64,000 nucleotides of DNA from a virus, in IMG/VR virus record IMGVR_UViG_3300025413_001414, positions 1 to 64,000 of that record; one strand, given 5' to 3'. Each line of letters opens with the position of its first letter. The first letter of the stretch is position 1. Below are positions 36,497-49,982 of this stretch, piece after piece. The notes under the pieces are model-generated. The model worked only from the letters and a program-made list of their open reading frames with translations, was not told the DNA's origin and ran no database searches. The position numbers and the translations under genes are program-made.

Positions 36497-37132
36497 TTAT
36501 CCTTTAATAACTTCTACGTTTTTCACAGCGATTACAGGTTTAACTTCTTCTACAATATTGTAGATTTCCATATCAGCCTCTTGAGAGTAATCCTTCAGCT
36601 TATCGATTGTACCTTTAGCCACACTGAAAGAAACAACGGCTTTAACAATCTTTTCTTTATCATCTTCATCAATTTCATCACAAGCCTCAATCAATTGAGA
36701 AAGAATTTCACCATATTTATCAACCATTTCACTATCAAATGAGAAGCTCGTTTTTTCTTCAACAGCAGCTTCACCGAAGGTTTCAGTCAAATACTTAGCC
36801 CTATCTTCGTTGATAGAAATATACTTATCAGAAGGTACGAACATCATTTGAGCCGTATCCAAACCAGATTTAGCCTCCAACATGATAGAACCTGGATTTT
36901 TGCTGGTTTTATCATATACTTTAGACCACTCAACCTTACCAATTTCTTTTACTTCATCAGAAATCATATCAGCCTCGGCCTTATCACGCTTCATGTTATC
37001 TTGAAGCTCTTGAAGCTTTTGAATTTTATCGAAGAAATCAGCATCTTTCACTTTAACACGAACTTTTTCATCTTTCGCTTTAGTTGTTTTAGCGGGAGCC
37101 GACTTTTTAGCTTTTGCAAATAAATTAGCCAT
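36497..37132 (-). CDS. Hypothetical early protein
   Basis: 211 aa; own TATCTTTG promoter at 37170-77. Confidence 0.7.
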   Translation of the reverse strand: MANLFAKAKKSAPAKTTKAKDEKVRVKVKDADFFDKIQKLQELQDNMKRDKAEADMISDEVKEIGKVEWSKVYDKTSKNPGSIMLEAKSGLDTAQMMFVPSDKYISINEDRAKYLTETFGEAAVEEKTSFSFDSEMVDKYGEILSQLIEACDEIDEDDKEKIVKAVVSFSVAKGTIDKLKDYSQEADMEIYNIVEEVKPVIAVKNVEVIKG

Positions 37133-37211
37133 AATAATAAGTTTTAAGTTTTTTGATTGATTTGTTTCACAAAGATACGAACTTTTTCAGAAACCACCTA
37201 ATTTTTTATTT

Positions 37212-37249
37212 AGAAATGACATGCTAAATACACCATACCCTTCATTTCT
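37212..37249 (-). ncRNA. Hairpin RNA motif copy 3 (own promoter)
   Basis: AGAAAUGA-AGGGUAUGGUGUAUUUAGCAUG-UCAUUUCU; promoter at 37266-73. Confidence 0.55.
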
Positions 37250-37299
37250 CTCGTTCTTTGTTACACAAAGATACGACAAATTTCCGAAACCACCAAATA

Positions 37300-37431
37300 A
37301 AAATTCCCCTCGTATAGAGAGGAATTCTTATACCAAAACAAACAGTTATGAGACTAAAGTGACGTGCCAGATACACTATACCTTTCACTTTGTAAATGAC
37401 GTGCCAGATACACTATACCTTTCATTTACAA
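37300..37431 (-). ncRNA. Small RNA with two tandem copies of an unknown hairpin motif
   Basis: 28-nt direct repeat 37360-87 / 37397-424 with different closing stems; promoter at 37434-41; terminator-like hairpin ~37300-37327. Confidence 0.6.
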
Positions 37432-37472
37432 TACAAAGATACAGCAAGATTTTGTAACCACCAAATTTATTT

Positions 37473-38108
37473 TTATTCAAACCAAGTCACTTTTCCAGTA
37501 AGAATATCATATACAGATCCAACTACTCTTACTTGATTTGTATTTACAAGATTATTAATAACTGGTTTAGAATTTTTGAGACTATCTACATTTGAAGTTA
37601 CATTACATTTGATTGCTTCATAAATAAAATTACTATCAGTCTTTTTAACTTTCTTAGTAGATTGTTGAATTTTCTCAATAAGAACTTGAATATGATTGTC
37701 AAACTTACTATTTGAGTTGACCGCTGCAGTAACCGCACCACAACTAGTATGGCCCATTATAACAATTAGATTAGTATGTAGATTCAAAATAGCATACTCT
37801 ATACTTGATAAGTTATCATCATTTATAACATTGCCAGCAACTCTAATTACAAAAAGTTCTCCAAGACCTTTATTAAATATTATTTCTGGAGAAACTCTTG
37901 AGTCAGCGCAAGTAATAATAACAGCTTTAGGATTTTGACCTTTAGATAAAAAAAGTCTGGTTAACGAATCTCGATTTTTACTGCTAAATAATCCAGAAGT
38001 ATATTCATTATTTCCAGATTTTAACCAAGTTAGAAGTGAATCATTTTTAGATTGTGAGAAACTTAAATTACTAATTAAAAGTAATAAAATAAGGATAAAA
38101 TTTTTCAT
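37473..38108 (-). CDS. Beta-carbonic anhydrase with signal peptide
   Basis: CADSRV, GELFVIRVAGN, GHTSCGAV; MKNFILILLLLISNLSFS|Q. Confidence 0.92.
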   Translation of the reverse strand: MKNFILILLLLISNLSFSQSKNDSLLTWLKSGNNEYTSGLFSSKNRDSLTRLFLSKGQNPKAVIITCADSRVSPEIIFNKGLGELFVIRVAGNVINDDNLSSIEYAILNLHTNLIVIMGHTSCGAVTAAVNSNSKFDNHIQVLIEKIQQSTKKVKKTDSNFIYEAIKCNVTSNVDSLKNSKPVINNLVNTNQVRVVGSVYDILTGKVTWFE

Positions 38109-41967: not shown

Positions 41968-43143
41968 TCATATAATTTCTTTAAATTTTTCAATTTCTAA
42001 TCTCTTTATTTCCTTACCTAATTCAGCACCTTTGAATCCTTGTTTCATTAACTCTTCAGCTGAAACAGATGGTTTGTATTTTATAAAAGCCAAATGAGTT
42101 GCATCATTTATTTGATTTATTTTATACCAATCTAAGATAACTTCATCACTAACTCTCGCAACTGTTCTCTTTTTATACATTTCTGTAACATCATCTACTT
42201 TAAAATCTAAAAGAGATATCAAGAAAACTATCCTTCTAGCCATATCCACTTCAATTTTACAATCTTGAACTAACTTATCTAATATATTTTTGTTTTCTTT
42301 TAACAAATTAGCTAAGTAAACTTCTAAATATTTAGAATCTCTGATATCAGTATTGATTTTAAAGCCAGGTAGAATTTCTTCCCATAATCCGAATTTAGTC
42401 AATAGATTTAAATATTCTGAAAAATCTTTGGCTTGTTTGAAAGCTTTTTTAAGCTCATCCCAAATTCTCTCTTGTGATACATCATCTTTTGGACTTATAC
42501 CTCTTAATCTATTATCTTTTCTTATGGCTTGATCCGTTTTAGAATCAATCTTACCACCAGTTCTTGTGGCAAACCTCAAAATTCTAAGGATTCTTAGACG
42601 ATCTTCTATAAATCTCTTATTAGCATCACCTACTGCTCTAACTATACCATTTTTTATATCATCAACACCACCAACTAAATCAACTATCTGTTTGTTTTTA
42701 ATGTCATAGAATAGAGCATTCATAGTCAGGTCTCTTCTATTACAATCATCTTCAATAGTTACATCACCACCTACTTCAACTTTTTTTTCATCGCCTTTCG
42801 TATCTCTACCACCAGAAATATCCCTTCTATAAGAAGCAATTTCATAACCGCCTGGTTCATCTTTTGTATAGACTCTTAATACACCAAAATTTTTACCTTG
42901 TTCATCAGAAATATTGAATTCTTTTAATATTTCTTTTGATTCATTAGGAAGAGCATTTGTTACCAAATCATAATCTTTTGGTTCTATACCTTGTATGAAA
43001 TCTCTAACTGCACCACCGACTAAAAAGATGTCTTTACCTGCTTTAATATAAGCATTTGATATGTCTATAATATCATTTGGTAGAGGAATTTCTGTTGAGA
43101 TTTTATTCTCATTTATAAATTGTCTATATCTTTTAATTTTCAT
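41968..43143 (-). CDS. cca: Class II tRNA nucleotidyltransferase (CCA-adding-like) with N-terminal tag
   Basis: [35 protein letters not shown]; [12 protein letters not shown]. Confidence 0.88.
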
Positions 43144-43611
43144 TTTGGTTCATTTTTTTCTTTCTTTCTATCCAAGCAAGTTTCATTTTTAACTTGTGTT
43201 CTTCTGATTTTGGTTTACCTTTTCTTATCTCTGATAGCTTCTTTTTTGTTTCTTCGAATAACTTTTTACCTTTTTTTGATTGAGATAATTTCATTTTTGC
43301 TTCTTCTTACATAGGAATTCCCTTATTCCAAGATTTTGTTCCTTTTTTAGTTTTGGAAATTTTGTCTTTTGTGTTGTTTGAGTGCTTCTTACCATAAAAA
43401 CTATTTTTTTACCTAACTTTGATTCTGATTTCTTTTTCCTAGTATCTTCTGGTTCTATCCTACCTGTCAATGCTTTAGATATTTTACTTTTTGTTTCTTC
43501 TGAAAGAGTGTCGACATATTTTGGATGATTTTGTCCTGCAGATGTTGATCCTATGTAGAATTTAGGTAATTTATCACCACTATAAGTAACTAAGTATGTA
43601 ACATATTTCAT
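43133..43611 (-). pseudogene. Degenerate GIY-YIG/NUMOD3 endonuclease
   Basis: YVTY...FYIGSTS then directly NUMOD3-like SEETKSKIS repeats; core apparently deleted and frameshifted. Confidence 0.7.
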
Positions 43612-43624
43612 ATGTAAATATAAA

Positions 43625-43863
43625 TTAAAATTTTAATATATATAAATTAATTAGTTCTAAAACTTCATCTGGAGTAGCATCAGTGCATAAGTCAAAATCC
43701 TTTGGTCTCTCATTATTTAGAAAGTCTCTAACCGCACCACCTACTACAAACAATTTTTTATGATGTTGTTTGAACAATTGATGTAAATCTTTAACAGATT
43801 GTGTAATAATATTCCACATATCACTTTTACTTTCTAAAAATTCATTGTATTTAGTATTATCAT
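43625..43863 (-). pseudogene. N-terminal fragment of a second nucleotidyltransferase
   Basis: [24 protein letters not shown] then stops; ATG at 43863 is one base out of frame with TKYNEFLES. Confidence 0.8.
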
Positions 43864-43952
43864 CTTGCAAATGTAGTCAAAATTTTAATATATATGGACA
43901 AAGAAGATCAGGTCGTGGATATTTTAATGGTGTAAAAACTAATATATAAGTA

Positions 43953-49043: not shown

Positions 49044-49403
49044 TCAAGCCCAGCCTGAATCCAACGTTTCATTTTCCACTACTGATTTAGCCGATATGAA
49101 ATCATTATTTTTTAAATATGACTTGATTTTATCTAAATTTTGAGGAGTAATCCATTTTATAAATATTGTTGAATTACGATGTGAATTATAACGACTACGA
49201 AGGTCGAAACTTGTAATTTTACTAATTAAATTTTCCAAGCCTTCGGTGGTTTCCCAATCACTACAAACATTATAACCCTCTAAACCTAAATCATCATAGA
49301 TACCAAGAATTAATATGTAATTTTTATGAAATTCAACTTGCTCAGGGGTTCTTAATAGAACTGAAATTGAAATATCTCTCTTGATTGGAGTTAGTGTATC
49401 CAT
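49044..49403 (-). CDS. Hypothetical protein, probably leaderless
   Basis: ATG 4 nt downstream of TATCTTTG (49408-15). Confidence 0.6.
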   Translation of the reverse strand: MDTLTPIKRDISISVLLRTPEQVEFHKNYILILGIYDDLGLEGYNVCSDWETTEGLENLISKITSFDLRSRYNSHRNSTIFIKWITPQNLDKIKSYLKNNDFISAKSVVENETLDSGWA

Positions 49404-49415
49404 CTCACAAAGATA

Positions 49416-49982
49416 CTAAACTTTTTTGAAACCACCAAATTCAATAATCCAGTAGTTCCAACCTATCATAATCATCGAGTGTATTGTTTCTGATATAGCC
49501 ATACCATGAAAAAATTTAATAACTGATAGAGGTAATAACACCATCACTATTGAAAATATTAAATTAGTTTTCCAAACTCTTAATGGAATTTTGTTGTAGT
49601 TAAAATGTGCAAAAAGAAAAATAGCTAGTGGATATCCAAAAAAATAATACACAGCTAATATATTGTGTATGTAATATCTCATACTAAATAATCCAACTAA
49701 AAAAAGAGAAGCGTTGAGTGATATGAAAAATAAAATAATCAATTTTTTAAATACAAGATTATTAAAAGAATTTATATAAGTATAGACATTATACATCATT
49801 GATATTGATAGTATAATAAGTGAAGCATTCCATATCCAAGGATGACTTGATTTTGTTCCCCAATATGAAAGTTGTATATCTGTAAATTTAAAATTAGCAG
49901 TAAAGAAAAAGTATAAAAATATAGCAAAGAATACCACAGTAGAAAATACTACTTGCAACATTCTAATTTTTTTGAGGTACAT
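49416..49982 (-). CDS. Multi-pass membrane protein (DUF998-like)
   Basis: About six TM helices, LSYWG, IHNILA..YF. Confidence 0.65.
   Translation of the reverse strand: MYLKKIRMLQVVFSTVVFFAIFLYFFFTANFKFTDIQLSYWGTKSSHPWIWNASLIILSISMMYNVYTYINSFNNLVFKKLIILFFISLNASLFLVGLFSMRYYIHNILAVYYFFGYPLAIFLFAHFNYNKIPLRVWKTNLIFSIVMVLLPLSVIKFFHGMAISETIHSMIMIGWNYWIIEFGGFKKV

What the first reader, a model, noticed from the sequence alone, without database searches (positions are those of the whole stretch)
37212..37441. Three copies of an undescribed hairpin RNA motif expressed from dedicated early promoters
Seen on the - strand: stem-UGA-ARGGUAURGUGUAUYURGCAYG-UCA-stem three times. The 22-nt core is identical in two copies (period 37 nt) while the closing stems all differ yet pair perfectly (UUGUAAAUGA/UCAUUUACAA, AAAGUGA/UCACUUU, AGAAAUGA/UCAUUUCU). 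Two copies lie between a TATCTTTG promoter and a terminator-like hairpin, and the third has its own promoter. Each copy also begins a reading frame (M/V)KG(I/M)VYLA(R/C)H with several synonymous differences and the start codon buried in the stem. Inference: early decoy RNAs that titrate a host protein (anti-defence mimics of type III antitoxin or crRNA repeats, or of a translational operator), or stem-gated micropeptides. I do not recognise the family.
Basis: partly seen in the sequence, partly recalled or inferred. Interest (0 to 1): 0.85.

Follow-up and report, generated by a model that had tools for sequence, protein, structure and literature searches.

The report
Conserved promoter-proximal hairpin RNA in lake jumbo phages
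A large freshwater phage of Bacteroidota carries three copies of a short, strongly conserved hairpin element right behind strong host-type promoters; a related lake phage puts the same element in front of tRNA-like genes and of the promoter stack of its giant GOLLD RNA, so it is a real, undescribed RNA leader/small-RNA module whose function is still unknown.

Summary
Three copies of TGA-ARGGTATRGTGTATYTRGCAYG-TCA lie on the minus strand (0 expected by chance). Each is closed by a different stem. Two sit between a Bacteroidota-type promoter and an intrinsic terminator; the third has its own promoter.

The window is part of a 78.7 kb fragment of a huge phage. One metagenome scan found the same element three more times in a related lake phage. 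Each copy starts 8 nt after the -7 box; two precede tRNA-like genes and one precedes the last promoter before a GOLLD RNA.

Between the two phages the motif is 91% identical. The promoter spacer is 55% identical and the 3' flank 40%, so the motif is under selection.

A two-helix structure is supported by compensatory changes and by strand-specific G.U pairs. The embedded mini-ORF uses rare codons, has a paired start codon and has no fixed stop.

There was no Rfam match. The motif was not found in nine related jumbo-phage records, in 151 Bacteroidia genomes, or by strict pattern in 185,579 species genomes.

Best reading: a noncoding 5'-terminal leader and small-RNA hairpin that presents a conserved loop to an unknown factor. 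The decoy, antitoxin and CRISPR-mimic ideas are untested or unsupported. No transcript data could be obtained. The scan noted this same stretch once before from an overlapping window.

The parts
37434..37462 (-). Promoter P1, GGTGGTT-N13-GTATCTTTG (Bacteroidota -33 TTTG / -7 TAnnTTTG type). Predicted start is G at about 37429.
   Evidence: 4 copies, 0 expected. Consensus and the -12..-5 position of the -7 box from PMC6847099 and PMC9723704.
37390..37431 (-). Hairpin copy 1: 10-bp complementarity, of which 8 bp lie in the predicted transcript, closing the 22-nt core AAGGUAUAGUGUAUCUGGCACG.
   Evidence: -11.3 kcal/mol.
37356..37391 (-). Hairpin copy 2: identical 28-nt core, 7-bp stem AAAGUGA/UCACUUU with an A-U to G-C double change.
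37295..37325 (-). Intrinsic terminator (G+C-rich stem, UAUAC loop, U-rich tail). It ends the P1 transcript and the upstream carbonic-anhydrase operon.
37266..37294 (-). Promoter P2 (same extended consensus).
37212..37249 (-). Hairpin copy 3: 8-bp stem, core with 5 transitions relative to copies 1 and 2. No terminator follows; the transcript would run into P3 and the next gene.
   Evidence: -9.9 kcal/mol, z -2.3.
37170..37198 (-). Promoter P3, the proximal promoter of the 211-aa gene. Its leader is unstructured and A-rich.
   Evidence: Analogous gene-proximal leaders in relatives are unstructured.
36497..37132 (-). Downstream gene: a 211-aa protein of unknown function, conserved in many large phages (1447 homologues). 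Several relatives also place an extra promoter plus a structured RNA upstream of it.
37473..38108 (-). Upstream gene: beta-carbonic-anhydrase-like protein. Its stop codon lies 10 nt before P1, so hairpins 1 and 2 also lie in its 3' UTR.
   Evidence: PF00484, E 2.6e-41.

Best explanation
The element is a noncoding RNA module built into strong host sigma-A-type promoter cassettes of a small clade of freshwater Bacteroidota jumbo phages.

Anatomy: transcription is predicted to start 4 nt before the AUG. The closing stem (6-10 bp) therefore begins at +1 to +3 in four of five promoter-proximal copies, which makes it a 5'-terminal hairpin. Inside it the core forms a G.U-rich 6-bp helix (RGGUAU/GUAUYU) with an RGU triloop, and leaves a conserved asymmetric bulge NGCAYG.

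Proposed mechanism (inferred, not shown): the stem sequesters the 5' end of the primary transcript. The invariant inner hairpin and bulge are bound by a protein, either host transcription or RNA-processing machinery or a phage factor. The module thus marks or protects transcripts made from these promoters.

In the related phage it leads tRNA-like precursors, from which RNase P would release it, and lies in the promoter stack in front of GOLLD. In this phage one copy leads the long mRNA of the 211-aa gene. Two tandem copies form a stand-alone, terminated RNA of about 130 nt that would bind the same factor in trans.
For: - Reality and selection: 3 copies against 0 expected. Three further copies occur in an independent lake-phage lineage (45-51 bits). 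The motif is 91% identical between lineages, against 55% for the promoter spacer, 61% for the initial transcribed bases and 40% for the 3' flank.
- RNA structure: 87% of cells are paired against 32-53% for slid controls. Three outer-stem pairs carry double changes, one of them with U-A, A-U, G-C and C-G. The inner helix is paired in 6 of 6 copies with only one-sided changes.
- Strand: three of the six inner pairs are G.U, so the fold exists only on the strand read from the promoters (sequence).
- Position: in 4 of 5 promoter-proximal copies the motif's ATG begins 8 nt after the -7 box; in the fifth a 12-nt insert precedes it. With the -7 box at -12..-5 (PMC9723704), the stem starts at the 5' end.
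- Context: leader of tRNA-like genes and of a promoter-plus-GOLLD unit.
- Upstream tandem promoters in these phages generally give structured RNAs (-7 to -18 kcal/mol), whereas gene-proximal promoters give unstructured leaders.
- Against coding: GC is 45% against 27.7% for the genome. Rare codons are used (GTG 7%, CTG 1%, CTC 2%, CGT 11%).
- No Rfam match, even at E<=1.
Against: - No transcript evidence of any kind.
- Only five distinct sequences from two lineages, and the homologues were found with a pattern that fixed most core positions, so the variation seen is biased.
- The hairpin is thermodynamically weak in two relatives (-5.4 and -3.8 kcal/mol). With downstream sequence included, their minimum-energy folds use other pairings.
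- Every variable core position is also a synonymous or conservative codon change, so a translated mini-ORF fits the same data.
- No binding partner is identified.
- Copy 3 sits 12 nt from the predicted 5' end and copy 2 is internal, so 5'-terminal placement is not universal.
- A cis-acting leader does not by itself explain the stand-alone terminated unit in this phage.
Confidence: 0.45

Rival explanations
1. Translated mini-ORF. The element encodes a peptide of at least 10 residues, MKG(I/M)VYLA(R/C)H(L/F), made from near-leaderless transcripts. Either the peptide or the act of translating it (a minigene or ribosome-stalling effect) is the function, and the stem gates the start codon.
For: - The frame is open in all six copies.
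- Variation falls at AAR, AUR, YUN (CUG, UUA, CUU, CUC, all Leu), CAY and UUN, with no second-position change.
- The start context has A at -3 and -6, which is favourable in Flavobacterium (PMC6847099).
- The same promoter type drives an exactly leaderless ORF at 49403.
- The A-U to G-C change in copy 2 keeps a start codon (GUG) and His (CAC).
Against: - Rare codons at invariant positions; the codon choice of copy 1 is about 10 times worse than random synonymous choice.
- The start codon is paired, and the predicted leader is 4 nt, neither leaderless nor a normal initiation region. Structure around the start lowers translation in this phylum (PMC6847099).
- Stops fall at random (11, 11, 17, 17, 23 and 48 codons). 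One frame runs into a tRNA-like gene and another through a terminator and a promoter.
- Outer-stem covariation beyond the frame is not explained.
- The syntenic leader of the closest IMG/VR relative reads AUG AGG UAG.
Confidence: 0.22
2. Trans-acting decoy or sponge RNA. The hairpins titrate a host protein, for example as a mimic of a type III antitoxin repeat, a CRISPR repeat or a translational operator.
For: - In this phage two identical copies form a promoter-to-terminator unit of about 130 nt, which is the architecture of multi-site sponge RNAs.
- The 37-nt period is in the range of type III antitoxin repeats (own knowledge).
- The phage carries a CCA-adding enzyme and a 2H phosphoesterase nearby. 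In the reading of an earlier scan note, not tested here, these form a tRNA-repair module that suggests pressure from RNA-targeting defences.
Against: - Not found in host-type genomes: 0 hits by strict pattern in 185,579 species genomes, and only chance-level hits (at most 29 bits) in 151 Bacteroidia genomes.
- No Rfam hit to ToxI-type or any other family.
- No toxN or cas gene beside any copy.
- In the related phage all three copies are single, lack their own terminator and are leaders of other RNAs.
Confidence: 0.15
3. Processive antitermination signal (nut/put or rrn-leader type). The nascent hairpin, alone or with Nus-type factors, makes RNA polymerase resistant to termination. Long untranslated RNAs (tRNA-like genes, GOLLD) are then completed, and the terminator at 37325-37295 is read through.
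For: - Promoter-proximal position in every transcription unit.
- A terminator lies directly downstream of copies 1 and 2.
- In the related phage it leads untranslated RNA genes, one with a boxA-like word GTTCTTAA 3 nt after the hairpin.
- Earlier scan notes describe hairpin-plus-boxA leaders before phage GOLLD. These are leads only.
Against: - No boxA-like word on the motif strand near any of the three copies in this window.
- One tRNA-like leader (L115) has the motif but no boxA, and other tRNA-like genes have boxA without the motif.
- No similarity to known nut or put RNAs.
- In L117 the motif lies upstream of yet another promoter.
Confidence: 0.12
4. DNA-level element (an operator for a repressor at +3 to +36), or a selfish or duplicated promoter cassette with no function of its own.
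For: It overlaps the initially transcribed region, where repressors often bind. It is flanked by an inverted repeat, and the module is repeated within genomes.
Against: - The symmetric A-U to G-C change and four different pair types at one stem position make sense for pairing, not for half-site recognition.
- The inner palindrome holds only with G.U pairs, so it is strand-specific.
- The spacer and flanks have diverged to 40-60% identity while the core stays at 91%, which excludes recent copying as the cause of similarity.
- Copy 2 and copy 3 are displaced by 37 and 12 nt from the promoter.
Confidence: 0.06

Closest known systems
Lambdoid nut boxB hairpins and HK022 put RNAs (promoter-proximal antitermination RNAs)
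   Same: Short hairpins that lie downstream of phage early promoters, occur in several copies per genome, and have a conserved loop and a tolerant stem (own knowledge of these systems).
   Different: No sequence or Rfam similarity. The loop is 22 nt with an inner helix rather than a pentaloop. No boxA lies next to the copies in this window. No N-like partner is identified, and read-through is untested.
rrn-type leaders (tandem promoters, hairpin, boxA) reported by earlier scan notes before phage GOLLD RNA
   Same: Stacked host-type promoters, each followed by a hairpin, in front of untranslated RNA genes. In the related phage the motif lies in such a stack before GOLLD (RF02032, 287 bits). BoxA-like words GTTCTTAA and GTTCTTTACA precede GOLLD and tRNA-like genes.
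   Different: The motif is a specific 34-nt conserved sequence, not a generic hairpin. It occurs without boxA, and in this window it precedes a protein gene and forms a terminated small RNA.
5'-terminal stabiliser hairpins of bacterial and phage mRNAs (for example the ompA 5' UTR)
   Same: A stem that begins within 0-3 nt of the predicted 5' end of the primary transcript.
   Different: Stabiliser hairpins need no conserved loop, whereas here the loop is the most conserved part. Copy 2 and copy 3 are not 5'-terminal.
Multi-hairpin protein-sponge small RNAs, phage RNA anti-CRISPRs (solitary repeat units) and pseudo-ToxI
   Same: Repeated identical hairpin units in one small transcript with its own promoter and terminator (copies 1 and 2).
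   Different: No matching host repeat or antitoxin was found. Relatives have single copies used as leaders, and no cas or toxN context is present.
Lambda bar minigenes and regulatory leader peptides
   Same: A very short ORF behind a strong phage promoter.
   Different: Ten conserved codons rather than two. Codons are rare, the start is paired and the stops are variable. No downstream coding gene is coupled to it in the related phage.

Membership tests
Any Rfam family (release 15) | Match to a covariance model at or near the gathering score | tested here: not met
   0 hits in the whole window at gathering thresholds. At E<=1 in 30000-52000 the only hit is unrelated (sR52, 22 bits) and lies elsewhere.
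Type III toxin-antitoxin antitoxin RNA (ToxI-like) | Array of tandem direct repeats of about 34-45 nt | tested here: not met
   Only two tandem copies, with a 28-nt identical core and a 9-nt different linker. Relatives carry single copies.
Type III toxin-antitoxin antitoxin RNA (ToxI-like) | Adjacent toxN/abiQ-type endoribonuclease gene, or sequence match to a host antitoxin repeat | tested here: not met
   The neighbours are a carbonic anhydrase and a 211-aa unknown protein. No genome match was found.
Phage solitary CRISPR repeat / RNA anti-CRISPR | Sequence and structure match to a CRISPR repeat of a (host) genome | tested here: not met
   The strict core pattern gave 0 matches in 185,579 species genomes. 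The covariance model gave only chance-level hits in 151 Bacteroidia genomes. More divergent repeats are not excluded.
nut/put-type antitermination RNA | Promoter-proximal hairpin upstream of terminators in the same transcription unit | tested here: met
   Copies 1 and 2 lie between P1 and the terminator at 37325-37295.
nut/put-type antitermination RNA | Associated boxA (nut, rrn), or demonstrated read-through | tested here: inconclusive
   No boxA-like word beside the copies in the window. A boxA-like GTTCTTAA follows one related copy. Read-through cannot be tested with these tools.
Protein-coding micro-gene | Conserved frame with substitution pattern, codon usage and stop typical of coding sequence | tested here: inconclusive
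   The frame is open and the changes are mostly synonymous. Against this, codons are rare, stops are random, the start is paired, and the search was biased.
Structured noncoding RNA (generic) | Covariation supporting a common secondary structure, strand specificity, conservation above the flanks | tested here: met
   The caveat is that only six sequences are available.
Structured noncoding RNA (generic) | Evidence of transcription | not testable with these tools

The most novel reading that the evidence does not exclude
The element is a new class of phage promoter-proximal RNA signal. Its conserved inner hairpin and NGCAYG bulge would recruit host transcription or processing machinery (or a phage factor) to transcripts from rrn-like promoter cassettes, licensing high-level, termination-resistant synthesis of phage stable RNAs (GOLLD, tRNA-like scaffolds). 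The stand-alone two-hairpin RNA of this phage would act as its trans-acting competitor or regulator.
Probability: 0.2. Interest if true: 0.75.

Novelty: new variant of a known kind. Interest (0 to 1): 0.5.

Why it matters
Jumbo phages of freshwater Bacteroidota devote tandem host-type promoters to untranslated RNAs such as GOLLD, whose biological role is still unknown. A sequence-specific leader element that this phage places before an mRNA and in a stand-alone small RNA, and that a related phage places before tRNA-like genes and in its GOLLD promoter stack, gives a concrete handle. It could be used as bait to find the factor that handles these transcripts. It could also be tested in Flavobacterium reporters for effects on stability, processing or termination.

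If instead it is translated, it would be an unusual hairpin-gated mini-ORF in a phylum that lacks Shine-Dalgarno initiation. Either way the family is narrow (two lineages so far), so the finding is of moderate rather than broad interest.

Tried and rejected
- An exact core pattern in IMG/VR gave 93 hits. All lacked the flanking stems and were chance.
- A back-translated peptide pattern in IMG/VR gave 0 hits. The same kind of pattern in five jumbo-phage records gave one hit, antisense inside a LAGLIDADG-like gene, taken as chance.
- Covariance models R1 and R2 found nothing credible in nine related jumbo-phage records or in 34 loci around homologues of the 211-aa gene. The best hit, 25 bits, lies inside a homing-endonuclease gene.
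- blastn of the module against GenBank phages returned only promoter-like similarity to Flavobacterium, Bacteroides and Prevotella phages.
- Antisense targets: the loop has a 9-nt complement at the 5' end of the leaderless ORF at 49400-49392, but about 12 such 9-mers are expected by chance. Duplex energies against the related phage were no better than for shuffled loops.
- A remnant of a GIY-YIG endonuclease N-terminus was considered, because the peptide resembles MKYVTYLVTY of a decayed gene at 43611. It was rejected because there is no nucleotide similarity and all six copies end at the same point under selection.
- A crude hairpin scan upstream of the 34 homologues was uninformative in AT-rich DNA.

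Full report
**What the window is.** The window is the first 64 kb of a 78.7 kb IMG/VR virus record that CheckV rates 16% complete, so it is a fragment of a phage of several hundred kb.
- GC content is 27.7%.
- Genes around the finding are phage-like: homing endonucleases, a CCA-adding enzyme, a 2H phosphoesterase, methyltransferases and an ATPase.
- Promoter-like sites have the Bacteroidota form, -33 TTTG and -7 TAnnTTTG (consensus as cited in PMC6847099).
- The module's only similarity to GenBank phages is promoter-like similarity to Flavobacterium, Bacteroides and Prevotella phages.

**The observation.** On the minus strand, TGA-ARGGTATRGTGTATYTRGCAYG-TCA occurs three times with none expected.
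- Copies 1 and 2 are identical over 28 nt and lie 37 nt apart.
- Each copy is closed by a different perfect stem.
- An extended promoter, GGTGGTT-N13-GTATCTTTG, occurs four times in the window with none expected. Three of the four bracket the hairpins.
- The order is: carbonic-anhydrase gene, P1, hairpin 1, hairpin 2, intrinsic terminator, P2, hairpin 3, P3, 211-aa gene.

**Relatives.** The core pattern gave only chance hits in IMG/VR and none in one genome for each of 185,579 prokaryote species. It also returned true homologues from two other lake metagenomes: L114 and L117 on one 19 kb contig, and L115 and L118, which overlap end to end.
- This second phage lineage has three copies.
- Each follows a TTTGGTG...TTATCTTTG promoter, with the ATG 8 nt after the -7 box.
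- In L114 and L115 the element is followed, after 8-25 nt, by a tRNA-like gene.
- In L117 and L118 it is followed by another promoter and then a GOLLD RNA (RF02032, 287 bits).

**Selection.** Between the two lineages, identity varies sharply along the module:

| Region | Identity |
|---|---|
| Promoter boxes | 100% |
| Promoter spacer | 55% |
| Initially transcribed bases | 61% |
| 34-nt motif | 91% |
| 3' flank | 40% |

The similarity is therefore maintained by selection and is not due to recent copying.

**RNA or peptide.**

A common structure fits all six copies. It has an outer stem, a one-base bulge, an inner 6-bp helix RGGUAU/GUAUYU with an RGU triloop, and a 3' bulge NGCAYG.
- 87% of cells are paired, against 32-53% when partners are slid.
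- One outer pair shows U-A, A-U, G-C and C-G in four copies. Another switches A-U to G-C in copy 2.
- The inner helix is paired in all copies, and half of its pairs are G.U. It therefore exists only on the strand read from the promoters, which argues against a double-stranded DNA site.

The caveats are real.
- There are only six sequences.
- Stems are weak in L114 and L115 (-5.4 and -3.8 kcal/mol).
- The homologues were found with a pattern that fixed most core positions.

Every variable position is also a synonymous or conservative change in the frame (M/V)KG(I/M)VYLA(R/C)H(L/F). For example, Leu is CUG, UUA, CUU or CUC. Translation therefore cannot be excluded. Several points count against it:
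- The motif is GC-rich (45%) and uses codons that are rare in this phage: GTG 7%, CTG 1%, CTC 2%, CGT 11%.
- With the -7 box at -12..-5 (PMC9723704), the AUG has a 4-nt leader and is paired. Initiation in this phylum depends on unstructured start regions (PMC6847099).
- The frames end at random (11 to 48 codons). One runs into a tRNA-like gene and another through a terminator and a promoter.
- The fourth promoter of the window gives an exactly leaderless ORF at 49403. The phage can therefore make leaderless mRNAs, but it does not do so here.

**Context in relatives of the 211-aa gene.** This gene has 1447 homologues, no Pfam family and no PDB relative.
- In LR745206, LR756502 and two IMG/VR records it is also preceded by an extra promoter plus a structured RNA, but with unrelated sequences.
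- Across the loci read, upstream tandem promoters give structured first 60 nt (-7 to -18 kcal/mol), while gene-proximal promoters give unstructured leaders.
- The motif is thus one specific, conserved member of a general habit of these phages: promoter plus 5' hairpin RNA.
- Covariance models found it in none of nine related jumbo-phage records, nor in 151 sampled Bacteroidia genomes.

**Interpretation.** The best-supported reading (about 45%) is a noncoding 5'-terminal leader and small-RNA hairpin whose conserved inner hairpin and bulge are bound by an unidentified factor. That it acts on its own transcript (protection, processing or termination resistance) is inferred from position and context only.

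| Rival | Confidence |
|---|---|
| Hairpin-gated mini-ORF | about 0.22 |
| Antitermination signal as a specific mechanism | about 0.12 |
| DNA operator or functionless cassette | about 0.06 |

- The decoy reading is favoured by the terminated two-copy unit here. It is disfavoured by the leader-only copies in the relative and by the lack of any host look-alike.
- For the antitermination reading, earlier scan notes on other genomes describe hairpin-plus-boxA leaders before phage GOLLD. I saw boxA-like words near some related copies but none beside the copies in this window.

**Limits.** No expression data could be obtained.

Noticed in passing
L114:2140-2447, L114:2798-2916, L115:1524-1618 (-), L115:1019-1125 (-): The related lake phage carries several tRNA-like genes with a constant 5' part GCCTTGTTCGTCTAGCGG and a constant 3' part ...GGTTCGAATCC...ACAAGGTA. 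They are interrupted in the D-loop by unrelated inserts of 26, 39, 51 and 240 nt. With the insert removed, ARAGORN draws a cloverleaf with covarying anticodon stems, an unusual 6-nt anticodon loop CUUUCA and no encoded CCA. They look like tRNA scaffolds that display variable RNA inserts.
   Followed up: partly
L117:2424-2829 and L118:2332-2737: A full match to GOLLD RNA (RF02032, 287 bits) lies behind three stacked promoters. The last promoter is followed by a boxA-like AAGTTCTTAAAA. No GOLLD match is present in the 78.7 kb held for this phage.
   Followed up: partly
window 49408-49436 (-) and ORF 49044-49403 (-): A fourth copy of the extended promoter lies here. With the -7 box at -12..-5, the A of the ATG at 49403 is +1, so the 119-aa ORF would be translated from an exactly leaderless mRNA. 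The loop of hairpins 1 and 2 has a 9-nt complement to codons 2-4 of this ORF, at chance level.
   Followed up: partly
L101:2840-2900, L102:2835-2905, L104:2885-2935, L119:3816-3925: Homologues of the 211-aa gene in other huge phages also have an extra upstream promoter followed by a hairpin with a large loop, but with unrelated sequences.
   Followed up: partly
window 37473-38108 (-): A phage-encoded beta-carbonic-anhydrase-like protein (PF00484, E 2.6e-41). The nearest genome hit found was 44% identical, in a Chitinophagaceae MAG.
   Followed up: no
window 43291-43611 (-): A 106-aa frame starting MKYVTYLVTYSGDKLPKFYIGSTS looks like a decayed GIY-YIG homing endonuclease. It lies between a full (41968-43143) and a truncated (43625-43870) CCA-adding enzyme gene.
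   Followed up: no
L115:1715-1800 (-) and L117:1781-1830: Other promoter-plus-hairpin units stand next to the motif in the related phage. One has a 9-bp stem AUAAAUGCG/CGCAUUUAU around a 35-nt loop. Another is a short hairpin followed by a U-rich tract, so it looks like a promoter running straight into a terminator-like site.
   Followed up: no
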